Source of the DNA: Parcubacteria group bacterium CG08_land_8_20_14_0_20_48_21
GTDB lineage: Bacteria; Patescibacteriota; Patescibacteriia; UBA1544
Direction: 5' to 3'
Length of the DNA: 64,000 bases
NCBI GenBank assembly: GCA_002774425.1
Contig: PEYJ01000011.1
Coordinates: forward strand, 35,915 to 99,914
Below, one piece after another: positions 6,702 to 24,464 of this stretch (the first letter of the stretch is position 1; the number at the start of each line of letters is the position of its first letter). A program made the position numbers and the translations under genes. The notes beneath the pieces are model-generated. The model was not told where the DNA came from, made no database searches, and saw only the letters and a program-made list of their open reading frames with translations.

Positions 6702-7619
6702 ATGTCCCATTCCATGGTAACCGTTGCTGAATTGCTTAAAAAAGCTACCGAACAATTACACGCGCACCATATTGACACCCCGGATCTTGATGCCGAGGTG
6801 CTTTTGTCTTGGGTACTCAACCGAGACCGCGCGTGGCTTTTCGTGCATGCCGATGCGCGTCTGACCGTTGTGCAAAAGGAAAAATTTTTTCGCGTGATAC
6901 AAAAACGCTCGCGCCGTGTTCCGATTGCCTATATCACCGGTAGCAAACCGTTTTACCGGTCGGACTTTATCGTCAATCAACACGTGCTCATCCCCCGCCC
7001 CGAAACGGAAACGCTGGTGGAAGAAGCGGTGCGTGCTCTAGGGGATAAGCGACATCCTGCTACGGTTGTTGATGTCGGCACTGGCAGCGGCTGTATCATG
7101 GTAAGCGTCGTACAAGAACTTTTGGCAAGAAGTGAAGATATTTCCGGTATGCGATTCTACGCAACCGATATATCTCACAAGGCGTTGCGTATTGCGAAAA
7201 AAAATGCAAAAAAAGAAGGTGTTGCAAAATATATCACTTTTTTACACGGTAATTTGTTGGAACCGTTTCTCATCCTGCAGAACGCCGTCCCTACGAAAAA
7301 ACTGTACATTCTTGCAAATCTTCCGTATCTTTCAGAAGTACAAATGCGCAATCTGCAACAGGAGGTCGCCCATGAACCGCGGGAAGCACTTGATGGCGGG
7401 GTTGAGGGATTGGCATACTACCGAAAACTTTTTGCGCAAATGCAAAACATGCGACGCGTACAGCGCGCGAGTATAATCTATACGCTATGCGAAATAGAGC
7501 CCGTGCAGGCAACGACGCTTACCAGCGAGATATGCAAAAACTTTCCAAGAACAACCGTACGCATGCGTAAGGATTTGCAGGGCAATGATCGCGTACTCCT
7601 AGCTCTCTCAAATCTATGA
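6702..7619 (+). CDS. prmC: release factor glutamine N5-methyltransferase (PrmC/HemK)
   Basis: SAM-binding VVDVGTGSGC and NLPY (a variant of the NPPY catalytic motif). Sits directly after prfA. Confidence 0.85.
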   Translation: MSHSMVTVAELLKKATEQLHAHHIDTPDLDAEVLLSWVLNRDRAWLFVHADARLTVVQKEKFFRVIQKRSRRVPIAYITGSKPFYRSDFIVNQHVLIPRPETETLVEEAVRALGDKRHPATVVDVGTGSGCIMVSVVQELLARSEDISGMRFYATDISHKALRIAKKNAKKEGVAKYITFLHGNLLEPFLILQNAVPTKKLYILANLPYLSEVQMRNLQQEVAHEPREALDGGVEGLAYYRKLFAQMQNMRRVQRASIIYTLCEIEPVQATTLTSEICKNFPRTTVRMRKDLQGNDRVLLALSNL

Positions 7620-18972: not shown

Positions 18973-20271
18973 TCACTTACTACCCTTTTCTTTAATGTCC
19001 TGCAATCCCCTGCGGACATCCCAGTCGTCCGGATCGGTATCGGCATGTATGACTAGCTTGGGAAATTGTTGCTTGAGCGCGTGGTGCATTTGATGCGCCA
19101 CGGTACGCAACGTCGGGTGTACCGTTTTTCCGGAACGCAGCTCTATCACGTACACCATCGGCGGAAGTCCGTAGGTAACGCGGCAGGGCACCCGATAGCC
19201 CATTGCGTGATAATATTGCGCCTCATTTTCATCAGCATGCAATTGCTCAACGGCCTCTTTTTGTTGCACCACAAGATTCTCCGCTTCTTTTCGCGCAGCA
19301 ACGGGAAGTTGTTCCACATACCACGGATGAAAACCGAATCGCGTAGTCAAAAGTGGCATGCGGCACACGCCGTTGCGGTGGCGTTGAATATCGCGGAATG
19401 ATCCGAAATCCAGCAGAAAATCAAAGGTGCACTGCCCGAGTTCCGTCAAAAAATGTGGTAGCCCAACATGTGGCGGGCGCATGGTTGTAATATCCCTATA
19501 TTGTTCCAATGCATGCGCATCAATAGTGGTGTGCAAAGCAAAATCAGGATACTGTTCAGGATTGAAATAGTTGTAGCGCCGCGCAACCGTATCACGATAC
19601 TGTTCCTGGTCTGCATACAATTCATGGCTGAAGCTGTGCGCGTATTTTTCCTTTAATTGTGTATGTATCTCTGCGGCAACCTCGCGCACTTCAGTAAGCG
19701 GATGGTGACGCAAAATGGCGAGCTTGTCCCACGCCTGGCGCAAATTGGTATGCCAGCTCAATTGCGTCATTATACCCGCGGGCAAAAAGCCGCGCAATAT
19801 ATCAAACGAACGCGCATTGATGGCGCGCTCATACACCTTTATATCCTCACCGTCTTTTCGCGGATACTTCTCCCGAATATGTGCACGGACCGCTTCCTGA
19901 CTGCCGAGGTAAAATGCCACCCACGTATCCAGTATCGCTTTGGAATTTTTGGTGCCAACCGGATCGGTTATCGCCTGCTGCGACATGTCAATATAGCGCG
20001 TGCTGGTCTCCTGCCCCGCGTAGAGCGGCCAATCCTGCACAGCTTTGGCAACGAGCGTGCTCACCCCCTCAATAAAGATGGTTGTGCTGCCGCAATCCGC
20101 AATGCTTAAGTGACCATAGCCAACATAAAACCGTTCCATGAATTTTCCTGAACCGGCTTCCTGCACCTTTTGGGCATGCACCTCCACGCTCTGCGCGCTG
20201 CGGGAATAAAGCGCTTGCATCATTGCCGTATCCTGCGGCGCAAATTTATCGTAGACGAATATTTTTGGCAT
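18973..20271 (-). CDS. ThyX-like (Thy1-family) thymidylate synthase, apparent tandem duplication
   Basis: 432 aa. Second half has FRDIQRHRNGVCRMPLLTTRF (RHR motif). First half has VQDWPLYAGQETSTRY aligning to the ThyX RHR-x7-SGRY block, with RHR replaced by DWP. Neighbours are dcd, dut and tmk. Confidence 0.5.
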   Translation of the reverse strand: MPKIFVYDKFAPQDTAMMQALYSRSAQSVEVHAQKVQEAGSGKFMERFYVGYGHLSIADCGSTTIFIEGVSTLVAKAVQDWPLYAGQETSTRYIDMSQQAITDPVGTKNSKAILDTWVAFYLGSQEAVRAHIREKYPRKDGEDIKVYERAINARSFDILRGFLPAGIMTQLSWHTNLRQAWDKLAILRHHPLTEVREVAAEIHTQLKEKYAHSFSHELYADQEQYRDTVARRYNYFNPEQYPDFALHTTIDAHALEQYRDITTMRPPHVGLPHFLTELGQCTFDFLLDFGSFRDIQRHRNGVCRMPLLTTRFGFHPWYVEQLPVAARKEAENLVVQQKEAVEQLHADENEAQYYHAMGYRVPCRVTYGLPPMVYVIELRSGKTVHPTLRTVAHQMHHALKQQFPKLVIHADTDPDDWDVRRGLQDIKEKGSK

Positions 20272-20360
20272 GTTATGGAGAAATAATTTTTACAAAAGGT
20301 ATAATGCTACATACCGTGCTTTTTGCAAGTATACCAGCACCATACCCTAGAGCGCAACTG

Positions 20361-20389
20361 TTGACCCAACCCAACACGTCTGATATTGT
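20361..20389 (+). promoter_or_regulatory. sigma-70-type promoter for dcd
   Basis: TTGACC, a 17 nt spacer, then TATTGT, about 30 nt upstream of the dcd ATG. Confidence 0.45.
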
Positions 20390-20417
20390 AAAGATGCTAT
20401 ATCTAATCCAATTTTTT

Positions 20418-21170
20418 ATGATTCTCTCGGACGCCGATATTAAAAAAGCCATGGAAGACGGGCAAATTAGCGTGAAACCCTTATTTCCTAACGCTGTGCA
20501 GCCGGCAAGTATTGACTTGCACCTTGACCGGTATTTTCTTATTTTTGATACCTCCTACCATCACGTGATTGATATCAAGAATCCGGTGGACGATCTCATG
20601 CGGGAAATTGAGATCAACGACGAACGGCCGTTCGTGCTGCACCCGGGCGAGTTTGCGCTTGGCTCCACCTTTGAAGAAGTTGGCGTTGCAGATGATATGG
20701 TGGGGAGGTTGGAAGGCAAGAGCTCGCTCGGACGCCTCGGCATTATCATTCACGCAACTGCCGGCTATCTGGACCCGGGCAATAAACTTCACATGACGCT
20801 GGAGCTCCACAACATCGGCACGCTGCCGGTAAAGCTGTACTACAAAATGCCTATCGCGCAGATGTCGTTTTCTCCGCTTTCTTCCCGAGCGGAAAAGCCG
20901 TACGGCATTAAAGCAAATAGTAAATATTTCGGTGCGTCAAAACCGCAGGCAAGCGCAATGTACCGGGATTTTATTCAGGAAAAACCTGTTGTCGCTGCGG
21001 CGCCAATACTATCCGTACCACAACCGGAAACTTCATTTACTCCGGAAGCCAAACCGCTCGTGACCGAAATGCAGTCAGGTCCAACACCTATAAGCGAAAT
21101 TTTGAAAGAAAAGAGCGAGGCAGCCGTAAGACCTAAAACACGCGCCACGCTCATTCCGCCCCTCCTGTAA
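20418..21170 (+). CDS. dcd: dCTP deaminase with ~90 aa low-complexity C-terminal extension
   Basis: Start set at MILSDADIKKAMEDGQI (a canonical dcd N-terminus; the ORF track starts 65 codons earlier). ASIDLHL and GRLEGKSSLGRLG motifs. Confidence 0.85.
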   Translation: MILSDADIKKAMEDGQISVKPLFPNAVQPASIDLHLDRYFLIFDTSYHHVIDIKNPVDDLMREIEINDERPFVLHPGEFALGSTFEEVGVADDMVGRLEGKSSLGRLGIIIHATAGYLDPGNKLHMTLELHNIGTLPVKLYYKMPIAQMSFSPLSSRAEKPYGIKANSKYFGASKPQASAMYRDFIQEKPVVAAAPILSVPQPETSFTPEAKPLVTEMQSGPTPISEILKEKSEAAVRPKTRATLIPPLL

Positions 21171-21209
21171 CTTACAGGAGGCAGTTTGGGGAAACACGAA
21201 AAAATTTAC

Positions 21210-22214
21210 ATGCCGCTTCAAGCAAAGATCAAACGCGTTGATACTACACTCCCCCTTCCCCGCTACGCAACGGCCGGTGCGGTGGGTTTTGACATGGTTA
21301 GCCGCGAAACAGTTATCATCTCTCCTAAAACGCTCGTGCGCATTCCCAGCAATCTGATTATTGAAATTCCTGCAGGCTATGCGTTGCTCGTGGTTCCCCG
21401 AAGCTCCACGCCGAAGAAGAAGGGGCTGCTCATTCCGCACGGTATGGGTGTTATTGACCGCGACTACTGCGGACCTGCAGATGAGATACTCATCCAACTC
21501 TATAATTTTACGGCCGAAGAAGTGACGGTTGAGCGGGGTGAGCGCATTGCACAGGGACTGTTCACCCGTATTGACCGGGTGGAGTGGAAAGAAGTGGAAA
21601 CCATGGCACACAACGATACACGCGGCGGATTTGGGAGTACGGAACCGCAATCAAAAATGAACATGAACAAACAGGATATTCTTGATATTATTGCGCGCGA
21701 TTCCTGGATGATGGAGGTGTTACGCGCAGCACGTTTACTCCATCTTCCTGATTGGATGATCGGCGGCGGGTTCGTGCGAAATAAGATTTGGGACGTATTA
21801 CATGGCTTTCAGAATGACATGGTTCCAACAGCCGATATTGATCTTATCTACTTTGATCCACGAATTACTGATGCATGGCAAGAAAAAACCTACGATACGC
21901 AACTGAAGAAAATTCTCGACCTTAACTGGTCATCCAAAAACCAAGCGCGCATGCATCTTAAGCACAACCGCTCGCCCTACAAAAACATTGAAGAAGCGCT
22001 TTCCGACTGGGTAGAAACCGCGACTGCCGTTGCTGTTCGATTGCAAGATGATAGTACACTGAGATTATTTGCCCCGCACGGAATAGATGACCTTATGCAT
22101 CTCATTGTTCGTCCAACACCGTTACATGCTTCTAGCTTGCAGCACTTTCATGAACGGGTACACGGCAAAAAATGGCGAGAACGCTGGCCGAAATTAAAAG
22201 TTGTAGAAATATAA
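21210..22214 (+). CDS. dut: dUTP diphosphatase fused to a C-terminal minimal nucleotidyltransferase-fold domain
   Basis: N-terminal dUTPase motifs 1-5 (AGAVGFDM, PRSS, GVIDRDYCG, RIAQ, RGGFGSTE). C-terminal ~185 aa carry GGGF-x20-DIDLIYFD, the hG[GS]...DhD nucleotidyltransferase signature. Start set at MPLQAKIKR. Confidence 0.75.
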   Translation: MPLQAKIKRVDTTLPLPRYATAGAVGFDMVSRETVIISPKTLVRIPSNLIIEIPAGYALLVVPRSSTPKKKGLLIPHGMGVIDRDYCGPADEILIQLYNFTAEEVTVERGERIAQGLFTRIDRVEWKEVETMAHNDTRGGFGSTEPQSKMNMNKQDILDIIARDSWMMEVLRAARLLHLPDWMIGGGFVRNKIWDVLHGFQNDMVPTADIDLIYFDPRITDAWQEKTYDTQLKKILDLNWSSKNQARMHLKHNRSPYKNIEEALSDWVETATAVAVRLQDDSTLRLFAPHGIDDLMHLIVRPTPLHASSLQHFHERVHGKKWRERWPKLKVVEI

Positions 22215-22232
22215 TCACCGTTCTATAGTTCT

Positions 22233-22919
22233 ATGCAAACTTCCCGGGGGGGACTCATCGTTATTGACGGCACCGATGGTTCCGGCAAAGCGACCCAGGT
22301 GAAAATATTGACCGATCGGCTGCAGCAAGAAGGCGTGGCAATCGCCTCTTTTGACTTTCCGCAATACGGAAAAAAATCCTCAGGGCTTGTTGAAAATTAT
22401 TTGAATGGCGCCTATGGCACGGCGGACGCGGTAGGCGCGTACCGTGCGTCGCTTTTTTACGCATGCGATCGGTATGACGCAAGCTTTGCGATACGCAAGG
22501 CATTGAACGAAGGTAAGGTAATCGTGACCAACCGCTACGTATCGGCAAATCTGGGGCATCAAATGGCAAAGATCGCTAACACACAAGAACGCAAAAAATT
22601 CAGAGACTGGCTCTACGACGTGGAATATGGCATATTTGATATCCCAAAGCCTGATCTGCAAATCATGTTACACGTGACGCCGGAAATATCACAAAAACTC
22701 GTGGATGACAAAGGGCATCGGGATTACGTTGGTGGCGTCAAACGAGATATTCATGAGGCTGACATCCATCATCTGCGCAAGGCGGAACAAGCATATAAAG
22801 AAATTGCACAGCTTCCCGGTTTCACTCTTATTGAGTGTGTTGAAAATGGTGAAATATTCTCCCGTGAGATTATTGCAGAGCGCATTTGGACTGTTGTTGC
22901 ACCAACACTGGGCTTGTAG
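22233..22919 (+). CDS. tmk: thymidylate kinase
   Basis: 228 aa; P-loop IVIDGTDGSGKAT and DRY motif. Confidence 0.9.
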   Translation: MQTSRGGLIVIDGTDGSGKATQVKILTDRLQQEGVAIASFDFPQYGKKSSGLVENYLNGAYGTADAVGAYRASLFYACDRYDASFAIRKALNEGKVIVTNRYVSANLGHQMAKIANTQERKKFRDWLYDVEYGIFDIPKPDLQIMLHVTPEISQKLVDDKGHRDYVGGVKRDIHEADIHHLRKAEQAYKEIAQLPGFTLIECVENGEIFSREIIAERIWTVVAPTLGL

Positions 22920-22958
22920 TTGCTTTGCACGGTTTTTCATGATACCATAAGATACGCT

Positions 22959-24464
22959 ATGCAAAATAAGAAATATGAAACCGTTATCGGACTAGAAATC
23001 CATGTACGGCTTGACACGAAGTCAAAGATGTTTTGCGCATGCAGCAATTCCGGAGAAGATCTGCCGCCGAACACGACGGTATGTCCCATTTGCATGGGGC
23101 ATCCCGGCACACTTCCCGCTATGAACGAGCAGGCAATTGCATGGGGTATGAAAGCGGCGCTTGCCATCAATTGCACCGTGGCGCATGAGTCAAAGTTTGA
23201 TCGCAAACACTACTTCTACCCTGACTTGCCTAAGGGCTACCAAATTTCCCAATACGACCAGCCCATTGGGCAGAACGGCTGGATAGAGTTTATGGTTGAG
23301 AGCGAACTCAAAAAGGTTCGGCTCAACCGCCTACACCTGGAAGAAGATGCTGCAAAGCTCATGCACGAAAAAAATCATTCACTGGTTGATTTTAACCGTG
23401 CCGGAGTGCCACTCGCGGAAATTGTAACCGAAGTCGATCTCCGCTCCCCCAAAGAAGCCAAGGCATTTTTACAGGAACTGCGCCGCATCATGCGCTATCT
23501 CGGCGTCTCGGAAGCTGACATGGAAAAGGGACATTTGCGCTGCGACGCGAATATTTCCCTGCGTCCGGTTGGGGATGCCAAGCTCTACGCCAAAACGGAA
23601 ATAAAAAACCTCAACTCATTTCGTTCAGTGGAAAAAGCGCTTGCCTATGAAGAAGAGCGGCAGCGAATATTATGGGAAGAAGGCACTCCGGTGTCTTACC
23701 TCTCTACGCGCGGGTGGAACGAACAGGAACAGAAAACGTATGAACAACGTATTAAAGAAGATGCAAACGACTATCGTTATTTTCCTGAACCTGATCTGCC
23801 CCCGCTTGAATTTAAGGACCGTGTCATTGAAGCAGTGCGCGATCAGCTTCCCGAACTTCCCGCGGCCAAGCGTAAACGCTTCCAAGAGCAGTATGGACTC
23901 TCCCCTGCTGACGTTGCGGTACTGACCGATGATAAGGAAGTTGCCCATTATACCGAACAGGTGATATCGGAACTCAAAAGCTGGCTTATGGATTTGGAGG
24001 AAATGGAGGGAACTGAAGAAGATATCTGGCGAACGCACAAAAAGAAGCTGGCAAAACTGGTTGCGAACTGGATTGGCACTGAACTTTTTAAGCATCTCAA
24101 TGAACACAAGCTTTCAATTAAAGATTGTAAGATAACCCCGGAAAATTTTTCGGAGTTCTTGACGCTCATTTGGAAGAAAAAAGTTAATTCCTCTGCCGCC
24201 CAAACCATTCTTGAAACCATGCTGGGTACAGGAGCTGATCCCTCGCATATTTTGGAAGAAAAGGACTTGGGACAAATGGATGATGCGAGAGCGCTTGATG
24301 TAATTATTGCAAAAATCATTACGACAAACGAGAAAGTCGTTGCTGAATATAGAGGGGGTAAGGAAAATGCCATACAGTTTCTTGTGGGTATGGTCATGAA
24401 AGAAAGTAAAGGCAAAGCAAATCCGGAAACTGCACTGGAGATATTGAGAAAGAAATTATCTTGA
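22959..24464 (+). CDS. gatB: Asp-tRNA(Asn)/Glu-tRNA(Gln) amidotransferase subunit B
   Basis: Start at MQNKKYETVIGLEIHVRL. Typical GatB with a C-terminal YqeY-like tail. gatA and gatC are not adjacent. Confidence 0.9.
   Translation: MQNKKYETVIGLEIHVRLDTKSKMFCACSNSGEDLPPNTTVCPICMGHPGTLPAMNEQAIAWGMKAALAINCTVAHESKFDRKHYFYPDLPKGYQISQYDQPIGQNGWIEFMVESELKKVRLNRLHLEEDAAKLMHEKNHSLVDFNRAGVPLAEIVTEVDLRSPKEAKAFLQELRRIMRYLGVSEADMEKGHLRCDANISLRPVGDAKLYAKTEIKNLNSFRSVEKALAYEEERQRILWEEGTPVSYLSTRGWNEQEQKTYEQRIKEDANDYRYFPEPDLPPLEFKDRVIEAVRDQLPELPAAKRKRFQEQYGLSPADVAVLTDDKEVAHYTEQVISELKSWLMDLEEMEGTEEDIWRTHKKKLAKLVANWIGTELFKHLNEHKLSIKDCKITPENFSEFLTLIWKKKVNSSAAQTILETMLGTGADPSHILEEKDLGQMDDARALDVIIAKIITTNEKVVAEYRGGKENAIQFLVGMVMKESKGKANPETALEILRKKLS

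What the first reader, a model, noticed from the sequence alone, without database searches (positions are those of the whole stretch)
21210..22214. dUTPase fused to a minimal nucleotidyltransferase domain
The N-terminal ~150 aa have all five dUTPase motifs, ending in RGGFGSTE. The same ORF continues for ~185 aa with GGGFVRNKIWDVLHGFQNDMVPTADIDLIYFD. That is a hG[GS] x20 DhD polymerase-beta-type nucleotidyltransferase signature. There is no stop or frameshift at the junction. A dUTPase-nucleotidyltransferase fusion inside a dcd-dut-thyX-tmk cluster is unusual. The nucleotidyltransferase half could modify a nucleotide or a partner protein, but its substrate is unknown.
Basis: partly seen in the sequence, partly recalled or inferred. 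Interest (0 to 1): 0.6.

Follow-up and report, generated by a model that had tools for sequence, protein, structure and literature searches.

The report
One-off dUTPase–nucleotidyltransferase gene fusion
One Parcubacteria population really does encode a single protein joining the housekeeping enzyme dUTPase to a small nucleotidyltransferase of unknown function, but the join looks like a recent one-base accident between two neighbouring genes, not a conserved new enzyme.

Summary
One uninterrupted ORF (21210, or TTG 21186, to 22214) encodes a complete trimeric-type dUTPase with motifs I-V intact. After a 7-residue linker comes a complete PF06042 (DUF925/COG3575) nucleotidyltransferase (E 5e-54) that keeps its own start Met. 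Its fold matches 2LA3, then the head domain of class-II CCA-adding enzymes and poly(A) polymerase.

The junction is not an assembly artefact. The same sequence occurs in six independently assembled contigs and the protein is indexed in 155 collection blocks.

The fusion is unique to this population:
- None of the best 150 hits among 1.84 billion representative proteins matches both halves.
- None of 162 NTase loci from other organisms has dut, dcd, thyX or tmk nearby.
- The closest dut relative (81% identical) has the same thyX-dcd-dut-tmk-gatB order, a normal 148-aa dut, and no NTase.

Removing one A from the A5 run at 21653-21657 restores a 149-aa dut. Its TGA stop then overlaps the NTase ATG, which is the commonest spacing for this NTase family.

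Most likely reading: the NTase gene was recently inserted after dut, then a one-base change fused them. Nothing found here shows the two activities are coupled. The NTase substrate remains unknown.

The parts
21176..21209 (+). Alternative start region. AGGAGG (21176-21181) lies 4 nt before the TTG at 21186. That start would add 8 residues (MGKHEKIY) ahead of the ATG at 21210.
   Evidence: Sequence. Gene callers disagree: 334-aa calls P0001 and P0126, 342-aa calls P0121 and P0123. Homologues start at the position of the ATG at 21210.
21210..21644 (+). dUTPase domain of the trimeric Dut type, with motifs I-V: 21273-21293, 21396-21410, 21447-21473, 21537-21554, 21621-21641.
   Evidence: PF00692 E 1.7e-24. 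TIGR00576 and NF001862 score above their cut-offs. Best PDB match 8y1q, E 4.6e-25. 81% identical to the stand-alone dUTPase P0127. DNA homology to the relative's dut ends at 21644.
21645..21662 (+). Junction and linker (PQSK-MN). It includes the A5 run at 21653-21657 and the first internal ATG at 21657.
   Evidence: Deleting one A in silico gives TCA AAA TGA. That yields a 149-aa dut ending PQSK-stop, with the TGA overlapping the NTase ATG. The relative's dut ends GSTE-NPKT-stop, the same tail length. The junction is identical in 6 independent contigs.
21663..22214 (+). Complete PF06042 (NTP_transf_6 / DUF925 / COG3575) nucleotidyltransferase, starting at the Met where stand-alone homologues start. 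IGGGFVRN at 21759-21782, DIDLIY at 21834-21851, APHGIDDL at 22071-22094. Stop codon at 22212-22214.
22215..22252 (+). 18-nt NTase-tmk spacer and the first bases of tmk. This is the right-hand limit of the segment absent from the relative; tmk homology resumes at 22253.
   Evidence: blastn of L082 against the window.
18973..21170 (.). Upstream context: long thyX-like gene (18973-20271, - strand) and dcd (about 20397-21170, + strand).
   Evidence: PF02511 65.8 bits. TIGR02274 185.9 bits against a cut-off of 92.8. The same order is found in the relative L082.
22233..24464 (+). Downstream context: tmk (22233-22919) and gatB (about 22959-24464).
   Evidence: PF02223 62.8 bits. Synteny with L082/L083, where tmk follows dut after 19 nt.

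Best explanation
The ORF is a genuine two-domain gene in one Parcubacteria population (the Crystal Geyser 'CG_..._48' MAGs).

Proposed origin:
1. The ancestral cluster was thyX / dcd-dut-tmk-gatB, with a normal dut of about 148 aa.
2. A stand-alone PF06042 nucleotidyltransferase gene was inserted into the short dut-tmk spacer. It was probably acquired from another CPR bacterium and probably sat in a 4-nt ATGA stop/start overlap with dut.
3. A single-base change then removed the dut stop and put the two reading frames in register. The most economical version is A4 to A5 at 21653-21657.

Proposed function:
- The product is a dUTPase whose C-terminal arm (motif V) continues, after a 7-residue linker, into a complete NTase.
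- The dUTPase half most likely does its ordinary job: dUTP to dUMP + PPi, feeding ThyX and Tmk.
- The NTase half most likely keeps its family's own, still unknown, two-metal nucleotidyl-transfer activity (hG[GS] plus DxD). Its nearest characterised structural relatives add NMPs to RNA 3' ends.
- The two activities are probably not mechanistically coupled. The fusion is a tolerated accident, or at most one that has only recently begun to be used.

Shown: the ORF, both domain identities, the fold, the uniqueness, the synteny, and the effect of deleting one A.
Inferred: the order of events, the A-insertion itself, that both halves are active, and that they are not coupled.
For: Reality of the fusion:
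- Continuous ORF.
- Identical junction in 6 contigs from different assemblers and samples; the protein is indexed in 155 blocks.
- A one-residue natural variant, P0126, is still fused.
- The 90% cluster contains no stand-alone 149- or 157-aa dut call.

Domain identities.

Uniqueness:
- Only P0001 has both domains among the 120 best-scoring proteins listed, of 274 hits.
- The best 150 of 20,122 hits in 1.84 billion representatives each match in a single stretch.
- 0 of 162 foreign NTase loci have dut, dcd, thyX or tmk within 3-4 kb.
- The two closest NTases (63-64% identity) sit in unrelated contexts.

Polarity (insertion here, not deletion elsewhere):
- The closest dut (81% identity) lies in the same thyX-dcd-dut-tmk-gatB-miaA synteny, with dut followed by tmk after 19 nt and no NTase.
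- More distant relatives carry thyA-folA or a HIT gene in that slot, never the NTase.
- dut homology ends at 21644 and tmk homology resumes at 22253.

One-base mechanism:
- Deleting one A gives a 149-aa dut ending PQSK-TGA, overlapping the NTase ATG. The tail length equals that of the relative.
- The -4 NTGA overlap is the commonest spacing for stand-alone NTases (16 of 106), and one (L066) has an A-run directly before ATGA.
- The window itself has another ATGA overlap at 7616-7619.

Fusions with neighbours are common and sporadic:
- dut relatives are fused to Tmk (P0276, P0281) and ThyX (P0345).
- The NTase is fused one-off to NUDIX, GNAT, glyoxalase, DinB, peptidase S51, ASCH and enolase.
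- The NUDIX fusion is itself a singleton.

No Shine-Dalgarno sequence lies at a useful distance from the internal ATGs. GGGAG is 19 nt upstream of the first. This fits former translational coupling.
Against: - The fused allele is the only one seen in every assembly, so it is at least tolerated and could be favoured.
- Both halves keep every family-invariant residue. That fits a neutral fusion and an adaptive one equally well.
- NUDIX genes, another class of NTP pyrophosphohydrolase, are enriched near this NTase family: 24 in about 1 Mb of flanks, and 5 of 162 loci with a NUDIX gene abutting the NTase. This leaves room for a real pyrophosphatase-plus-NTase theme.
- No intermediate genome with an unfused dut-NTase pair was found, so the A4 ancestor is hypothetical.
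- The lower GC of the NTase half (44.6% against 53.2%) lies within the range of other genes in the window, so foreign origin is not proven by composition.
- No activity has been measured for either half.
Confidence: 0.65

Rival explanations
1. Adaptive bifunctional enzyme. The dUTPase trimer holds three NTase heads so that the two reactions are coupled. For example, the NTase might use or avoid a (d)NTP whose pool the dUTPase controls. More generally, PF06042 NTases might work together with NTP pyrophosphohydrolases.
For: - The fusion is fixed in all assemblies and both halves are intact.
- NUDIX genes abut the NTase in 5 of 162 loci, including two different CPR lineages, and one NUDIX-NTase fusion exists.
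- The gene sits inside a nucleotide-metabolism cluster.
Against: - No other dut-NTase fusion or adjacency was found anywhere.
- The NUDIX-NTase fusion is a singleton.
- The NTase's partners and neighbours are heterogeneous: GNAT, glyoxalase, DinB, APH, ASCH, peptidase S51, enolase.
- The closest dut relative manages without the NTase in the same cluster.
Confidence: 0.15
2. Damaging fusion on the way to gene loss. The appended domain hinders the dUTPase C-terminal arm, or the NTase, having lost translational coupling, is effectively a passenger that no longer matters.
For: - The join comes directly after motif V with only a 7-residue linker. From general knowledge of trimeric dUTPases, that arm must close over a neighbouring subunit's active site.
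- The event is recent and population-specific.
- No second dut is present in the window.
Against: - No disabling substitution is seen in either half.
- dUTPases with C-terminal Tmk or ThyX fusions exist, so extensions at this end are tolerated.
- The NTase tolerates N-terminal partners in other proteins.
- CPR genomes are streamlined, and the allele is found in every assembly from many samples.
Confidence: 0.12
3. Sequencing or assembly artefact at the homopolymer, or two separate products made by slippage or frameshifting at the A-run, so that the cell actually makes separate Dut and NTase proteins.
For: - The junction lies in an A5 run, and one A fewer separates the genes.
- One public annotation calls only the 185-aa NTase.
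- A different homopolymer, the G7 run in tmk, does vary in one assembly.
Against: - A5 is identical in six contigs from independent assemblers and samples, and the fused protein is indexed in 155 blocks.
- The 185-aa call comes from DNA 100% identical to the window.
- No stand-alone 149-aa dut call is in the cluster.
- A5 is short for transcriptional slippage, and TCA-AAA-ATG is not a canonical slippery heptamer. This last point rests on sequence inspection and general knowledge.
Confidence: 0.04

Closest known systems
Trimeric (all-beta) dUTP diphosphatase, Dut (PF00692 / TIGR00576). Examples: PDB 8y1q and E. coli 1dud.
   Same: Residues 1-144 carry motifs I-V, including the motif III Asp and Tyr and the motif V RGGFGST. 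Scores are above the NCBIfam cut-offs. The domain is 81% identical to a stand-alone Parcubacteria Dut and sits in the usual dcd-dut-tmk context.
   Different: No stop follows the short post-motif-V tail. Instead the chain continues into a 183-aa foreign domain.
PF06042 / NTP_transf_6 (DUF925, COG3575; NTase-fold group XX of Kuchta et al. 2009, PMC2794190). The only solved member is S. pneumoniae NP_344798.1, PDB 2LA3.
   Different: Family members are almost always stand-alone proteins of about 184 aa. Here the domain is fused behind a dUTPase. The family has no known substrate: Kuchta et al. 2009 state this explicitly, and plasmid annotations say only 'nucleotidyltransferase family protein'.
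Head domain of class-II tRNA nucleotidyltransferases (CCA-, CC- and A-adding enzymes) and bacterial poly(A) polymerase I. Examples: 3aql, 3wfo, 3h37, 4wby, 1miv.
   Different: There is no sequence-level match: PF01743 is not hit, and the family profile finds only 2LA3 in the PDB. The domain is about 185 aa against 350-450 aa. It lacks the neck, body and tail that bind tRNA, and no EDxxR-type templating motif is evident.
Other dUTPase fusions to the downstream gene, found here among this dUTPase's relatives: Dut-Tmk (P0276, P0281) and Dut-ThyX (P0345).
   Same: N-terminal dUTPase (44-52% identical to the window's) with a second enzyme attached at the C-terminus. Tmk is the gene that directly follows dut in the closest relative, so these proteins fit fusion with a neighbour.
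   Different: Those partners belong to the same dTTP pathway. The PF06042 NTase has no known link to it.

Membership tests
Trimeric dUTPase (PF00692 / TIGR00576) | Profile score above the curated cut-off | tested here: met
   PF00692 86.5 bits (cut-off 22). TIGR00576 107.1 bits (cut-off 102.55). NF001862 105.6 bits (cut-off 103).
Trimeric dUTPase (PF00692 / TIGR00576) | Five conserved motifs, including the motif III catalytic Asp and Tyr and the P-loop-like motif V | tested here: met
   AGAVGFD, PRSST, GVIDRDYCG, GERIAQ and RGGFGST at residues 22-28, 63-67, 80-88, 110-115 and 138-144.
Trimeric dUTPase (PF00692 / TIGR00576) | Homotrimer with dUTP-specific pyrophosphatase activity | not testable with these tools
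   Needs protein biochemistry.
PF06042 / NTP_transf_6 (COG3575, NTase group XX) | Full-length profile match above the cut-off | tested here: met
   182.8 bits (cut-off 25), profile positions 2-159 of 159, E 5.1e-54.
PF06042 / NTP_transf_6 (COG3575, NTase group XX) | hG[GS] motif and DxD catalytic carboxylates conserved | tested here: met
   IGGGF 184-188 and DID 209-211. These columns are invariant in the 40-sequence alignment A1.
PF06042 / NTP_transf_6 (COG3575, NTase group XX) | Fold of the solved member 2LA3 | tested here: met
PF06042 / NTP_transf_6 (COG3575, NTase group XX) | Nucleotidyl-transfer activity and a defined substrate | not testable with these tools
   No member has been characterised. 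Literature searches found nothing further.
Class-II CCA-adding enzyme / poly(A) polymerase (PF01743) | Sequence membership (PolyA_pol profile) | tested here: not met
   No PF01743 hit at E <= 0.01. The family profile finds only 2LA3 in the PDB at E <= 10.
Class-II CCA-adding enzyme / poly(A) polymerase (PF01743) | Head plus neck, body and tail architecture that binds tRNA or RNA | tested here: not met
   The domain is 185 aa. Only 144-152 residues superpose on the head region of 344-517-aa enzymes.
Functionally coupled ('Rosetta-stone') fusion | The same fusion or adjacency recurs in independent lineages | tested here: not met
   No second fusion among the best 120 and best 150 hits listed. 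0 of 162 NTase loci have dut nearby. The dut relatives examined lack the NTase.
Known anti-phage defence components (PADLOC) | Match to a defence-system model | tested here: not met
   No PADLOC hit for the fusion. No homologue in 50,697 phage records.

The most novel reading that the evidence does not exclude
The fusion is adaptive. A dUTPase trimer would present three CCA-enzyme-like NTase heads, and PF06042 enzymes in general would act together with NTP pyrophosphohydrolases (dUTPase here, NUDIX elsewhere). One possibility is nucleotide addition to an RNA or small-molecule acceptor that is proof-read or reversed by the hydrolase. That would give the first functional handle on an uncharacterised, widespread NTase family.
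Probability: 0.1. Interest if true: 0.6.

Novelty: new variant of a known kind. Interest (0 to 1): 0.3.

Why it matters
- It is a clean, well-documented example of a fusion gene caught close to its birth. A foreign gene entered a conserved operon, and a single-base change at an ATGA stop/start overlap then welded it to an essential housekeeping enzyme.
- It is a caution against reading functional linkage into a single fusion. The architecture is unique, and its partner family fuses sporadically with whatever lies next door.
- It also draws attention to PF06042, a widespread CCA-enzyme-head-like NTase that still has no known substrate. Its modest association with NUDIX hydrolases is a testable lead.
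- If the fusion turned out to be catalytically coupled, it would be the first clue to that family's function.

Tried and rejected
- **Full-length structure model.** Two attempts to build a mixed alignment (A3, A4) misplaced the NTase homologues onto the dUTPase half. I dropped the model. A unique fusion carries no inter-domain co-evolution signal anyway.
- **Collection-wide DNA pattern.** The pattern requires dut motif V followed by the NTase D-x-W-M-M. It hits the window once but nothing in metagenome contigs or viral contigs. The metagenome collection evidently lacks this organism, so this is only a weak negative.
- **AFDB50 fold search.** The library was unavailable.
- **Promoter and terminator scan.** Counts were at chance level, so there is no support for an internal promoter or a terminator at the junction.
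- **Flanking repeats or target-site duplication around the insert.** Only short, chance-level repeats were found.
- **Composition as proof of horizontal transfer.** The NTase half is about 9-10 points lower in GC and GC3, but this is within the range of native genes, and its codon-usage distance is not an outlier.
- **Defence-system or phage origin.** No PADLOC hit and no phage homologue.
- **'Separate 185-aa gene' in a sister MAG.** Rejected, because the DNA is identical.
- **Apparent junction-spanning hits P0348, P0365 and P0386.** Their N-terminal extensions are not dUTPase.
- **Second dUTPase at about 42.4 kb.** Spurious; the ORF there does not resemble a dUTPase.
- **Programmed frameshift or slippage at the A5 run.** No slippery heptamer is present, and the run is short.
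- **Literature searches on PF06042, DUF925, COG3575, 2LA3 and dUTPase fusions.** Only the 2009 classification turned up, and it states that the function is unknown.

Full report
**1. Observation**

An uninterrupted ORF lies on the + strand from 21186 (TTG) or 21210 (ATG) to the stop at 22212-22214, giving 342 or 334 aa.

Curated profiles split it cleanly into two halves:
- Residues 15-144 match dUTPase: PF00692, E 1.7e-24; NCBIfam dut TIGR00576, 107.1 bits against a cut-off of 102.55.
- Residues 173-331 match the whole of PF06042 NTP_transf_6: profile positions 2-159 of 159, E 5.1e-54, 182.8 bits against a cut-off of 25.

The five dUTPase motifs are AGAVGFD, PRSST, GVIDRDYCG, GERIAQ and RGGFGST. 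The NTase motifs are IGGGFVRN and DIDLIY.

The neighbours are a long thyX-like gene on the minus strand, then dcd upstream, and tmk and gatB downstream.

**2. Is the junction real?**

The fused protein (P0001) belongs to a 90%-identity cluster whose members are 334 or 342 aa, with two possible starts. The cluster also holds partial calls and one 185-aa protein from a sister MAG. That sister contig is 100.000% identical to the window over 8558 nt, so the '185-aa gene' is only a different gene call.

The fused protein is indexed in 155 blocks of the assembly collection. Five further contigs from MEGAHIT, SPAdes and JGI assemblies of different samples are 99.9-100% identical to the window and carry exactly the same junction. 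A natural one-residue variant (P0126) is also fused. The cluster contains no stand-alone 149- or 157-aa dut call.

I could not see raw reads, but an assembly artefact is very unlikely.

**3. What the two halves are**

The dUTPase half is an ordinary trimeric-type Dut. It is 81% identical to a stand-alone 148-aa Parcubacteria protein, and its best solved relative is 8y1q (E 4.6e-25).

The C-terminal half is a complete member of PF06042, also known as DUF925 or COG3575. Kuchta et al. 2009 (PMC2794190) placed this family in NTase-fold group XX as 'probably active, no function assignable'.
- Stand-alone homologues are up to 64% identical, about 184 aa long, and begin exactly at the window's second internal Met, M-N-K-Q-D-I-L.
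- With a 40-sequence alignment, AlphaFold gives pLDDT 96.3.
- By sequence, only 2LA3 can be reached.

So the half is a minimal NTase resembling the class-II RNA nucleotidyltransferase head. It lacks the neck, body and tail that bind tRNA. It is not a member of the CCA-adding or PAP family.

**4. How widespread is the fusion?**

It is not widespread at all.
- Only P0001 carries both domains among the 120 best-scoring relatives listed from the 5.8-billion-protein collection.
- An exhaustive phmmer search of 1.84 billion representatives gave 20,122 hits. The best 150 each match in a single stretch. A fusion scoring roughly 60 bits or more per half would have reached that list.
- Three hits whose alignments appeared to cross the junction have unrelated N-terminal extensions.
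- One caveat applies. The window's own protein is not a representative, so fusions can hide inside clusters.
- I fetched 80 NTase loci from GTDB species genomes, 80 from metagenomes, and the two closest homologues. None of these 162 loci has dut, dcd, thyX or tmk within 3-4 kb.

**5. How it arose**

The closest dUTPase relative (L082/L083, 81% identical) sits in the same gene order: thyX(-), dcd, dut, tmk, gatB ... miaA(-). There, dut is a normal 148-aa gene followed 19 nt later by tmk, with no NTase.

More distant relatives have thyA-folA, or a HIT gene, in the slot after dut. None has the NTase.

DNA homology to the relative ends at window position 21644 and resumes at 22253. The NTase is therefore an insertion specific to this lineage.

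| | End of dut |
|---|---|
| Relative | ...GSTE-NPKT-TAG |
| Window | ...GSTE-PQSK-ATG AAC ATG AAC AAA..., through TCA AAA ATG |

The five A's lie at 21653-21657. Deleting one A in silico gives TCA AAA TGA. That yields a 149-aa dut with the same tail length as the relative, and its TGA overlaps the NTase ATG.

This 4-nt NTGA overlap is the commonest spacing between stand-alone NTase genes and a same-strand upstream gene (16 of 106). One of these, L066, even has an A-run directly before ATGA. The window has another ATGA overlap at 7616-7619.

The simplest history is therefore insertion of the NTase gene in a coupled overlap after dut, followed by a +1 change that put the two genes in frame. The A insertion itself is an inference. 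No intermediate genome was found.

**6. Is there functional coupling?**

The comparative evidence argues against it.

Fusion with the next gene is common for both partners:
- Relatives of this dUTPase are fused to Tmk (P0276, P0281) and to ThyX (P0345).
- PF06042 domains are fused one-off to NUDIX, GNAT, glyoxalase, DinB/MST, peptidase S51, ASCH and enolase.
- These partners mirror the family's heterogeneous neighbours.
- The NUDIX-NTase fusion has the same layout of pyrophosphatase followed by NTase. It is itself a singleton on a 1950-nt contig, and its 119 other listed relatives are all stand-alone apart from the enolase-NTase P0429.

One lead remains. NUDIX genes are over-represented near the NTase. 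There are 24 in about 1 Mb of flanks, and 5 of 162 loci have one abutting the NTase, including two CPR lineages. Many of these loci are Bacillota 'accessory' regions rich in such genes, and some are from closely related species, so I treat this as a hint only.

The family is absent from phages, occurs on 78 plasmids with no functional annotation, and matches no PADLOC defence model.

**7. Most likely mechanism**

The dUTPase half hydrolyses dUTP to dUMP + PPi for the ThyX/Tmk route. The NTase half retains its family's unknown two-metal nucleotidyl transfer. By fold, an RNA 3'-OH or another hydroxyl acceptor is the best guess. Neighbourhoods rich in GNAT, APH and glyoxalase genes leave a small-molecule acceptor open.

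No Shine-Dalgarno sequence lies at a useful distance before the internal ATGs, so the NTase is probably now made mainly as the fusion.

Appending a domain right after motif V could affect the dUTPase C-terminal arm, but the natural Dut-Tmk and Dut-ThyX fusions show that such extensions are tolerated.

Rough probabilities:

| Reading | Probability |
|---|---|
| Tolerated accident | 0.65 |
| Adaptive coupling | 0.15 |
| Damaging fusion or decaying passenger | 0.12 |
| Artefact or two separate products | 0.04 |

**8. Novelty and verdict**

Both domains belong to known families. The protein is already in public databases, annotated simply as 'dUTP diphosphatase' (PIY77868.1).

The architecture is undescribed and, as far as these searches reach, unique. 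I file it as a new variant of a known kind.

It is a neat case of fusion-gene birth and a warning against over-reading a single fusion. It does not reveal a new system. Interest 0.3.

Noticed in passing
window 22246-22252 (G7 run near the start of tmk); L085: In one independent assembly (L085, ENA ERZ27293391) tmk is split into 56-aa and 172-aa ORFs. That contig carries one gap relative to the window, probably at this G-run, though I did not locate it. This is either strain variation or a homopolymer assembly error. It contrasts with the invariant A5 run at the dut-NTase junction.
   Followed up: partly
window 18973-20271 (-): The thyX-like gene is unusually long (432 aa; 436 aa in the relative). 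It matches Pfam Thy1 only over residues 17-209 (65.8 bits) and falls well below the NCBIfam thyX cut-off (27.4 against 87.9). An RHR motif (QRHRNG) lies in the C-terminal half. It may be a divergent or internally duplicated ThyX typical of this lineage.
   Followed up: no
window about 20397-21170 (+): dcd carries a Pro-rich, low-complexity C-terminal tail of about 70 residues beyond the dCTP deaminase domain (profile match ends near residue 187 of 257). The relative's dcd is also long (282 aa).
   Followed up: no
window 21176-21210: The start codon is ambiguous. A strong AGGAGG lies 4 nt before the TTG at 21186, while the ATG at 21210, where homologues start, has no Shine-Dalgarno sequence. 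Public gene calls are split between 342 and 334 aa.
   Followed up: partly
P0276, P0281, P0345 (relatives of the dUTPase half): Natural dUTPase-thymidylate kinase fusions (348 and 376 aa) and a dUTPase-ThyX fusion (703 aa) exist among dUTPases 44-52% identical to the window's. These are same-pathway fusions that may deserve their own look.
   Followed up: partly
P0365, P0348: P0365 (374 aa) and P0348 (283 aa) carry N-terminal extensions on the PF06042 domain with no Pfam match. They share a motif (NIPAN-x-D-x-E...AK), and P0365 appears to have hydrophobic helices. About a dozen other PF06042 proteins of 312-403 aa also have long N-terminal regions; four that I scanned (P0290, P0311, P0331, P0334) likewise have no Pfam match. 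This could be a membrane-anchored subfamily.
   Followed up: no
L002 3581-4000, L015 3504-3986, L018, L042, L100; P0336: NUDIX hydrolase genes abut the PF06042 NTase in 5 of 162 loci, and 24 lie within about 1 Mb of flanks. One NUDIX-NTase fusion exists but is a singleton. This may be a weak functional association between this NTase family and NTP pyrophosphohydrolases.
   Followed up: partly
L082 1653-2312 compared with window 20272-20396: The closest relative has an HD-domain gene (219 aa) between thyX and dcd that is missing from the window. The slot after dut holds thyA-folA or a HIT gene in other relatives. The cluster is a hotspot of small gene gains and losses.
   Followed up: partly
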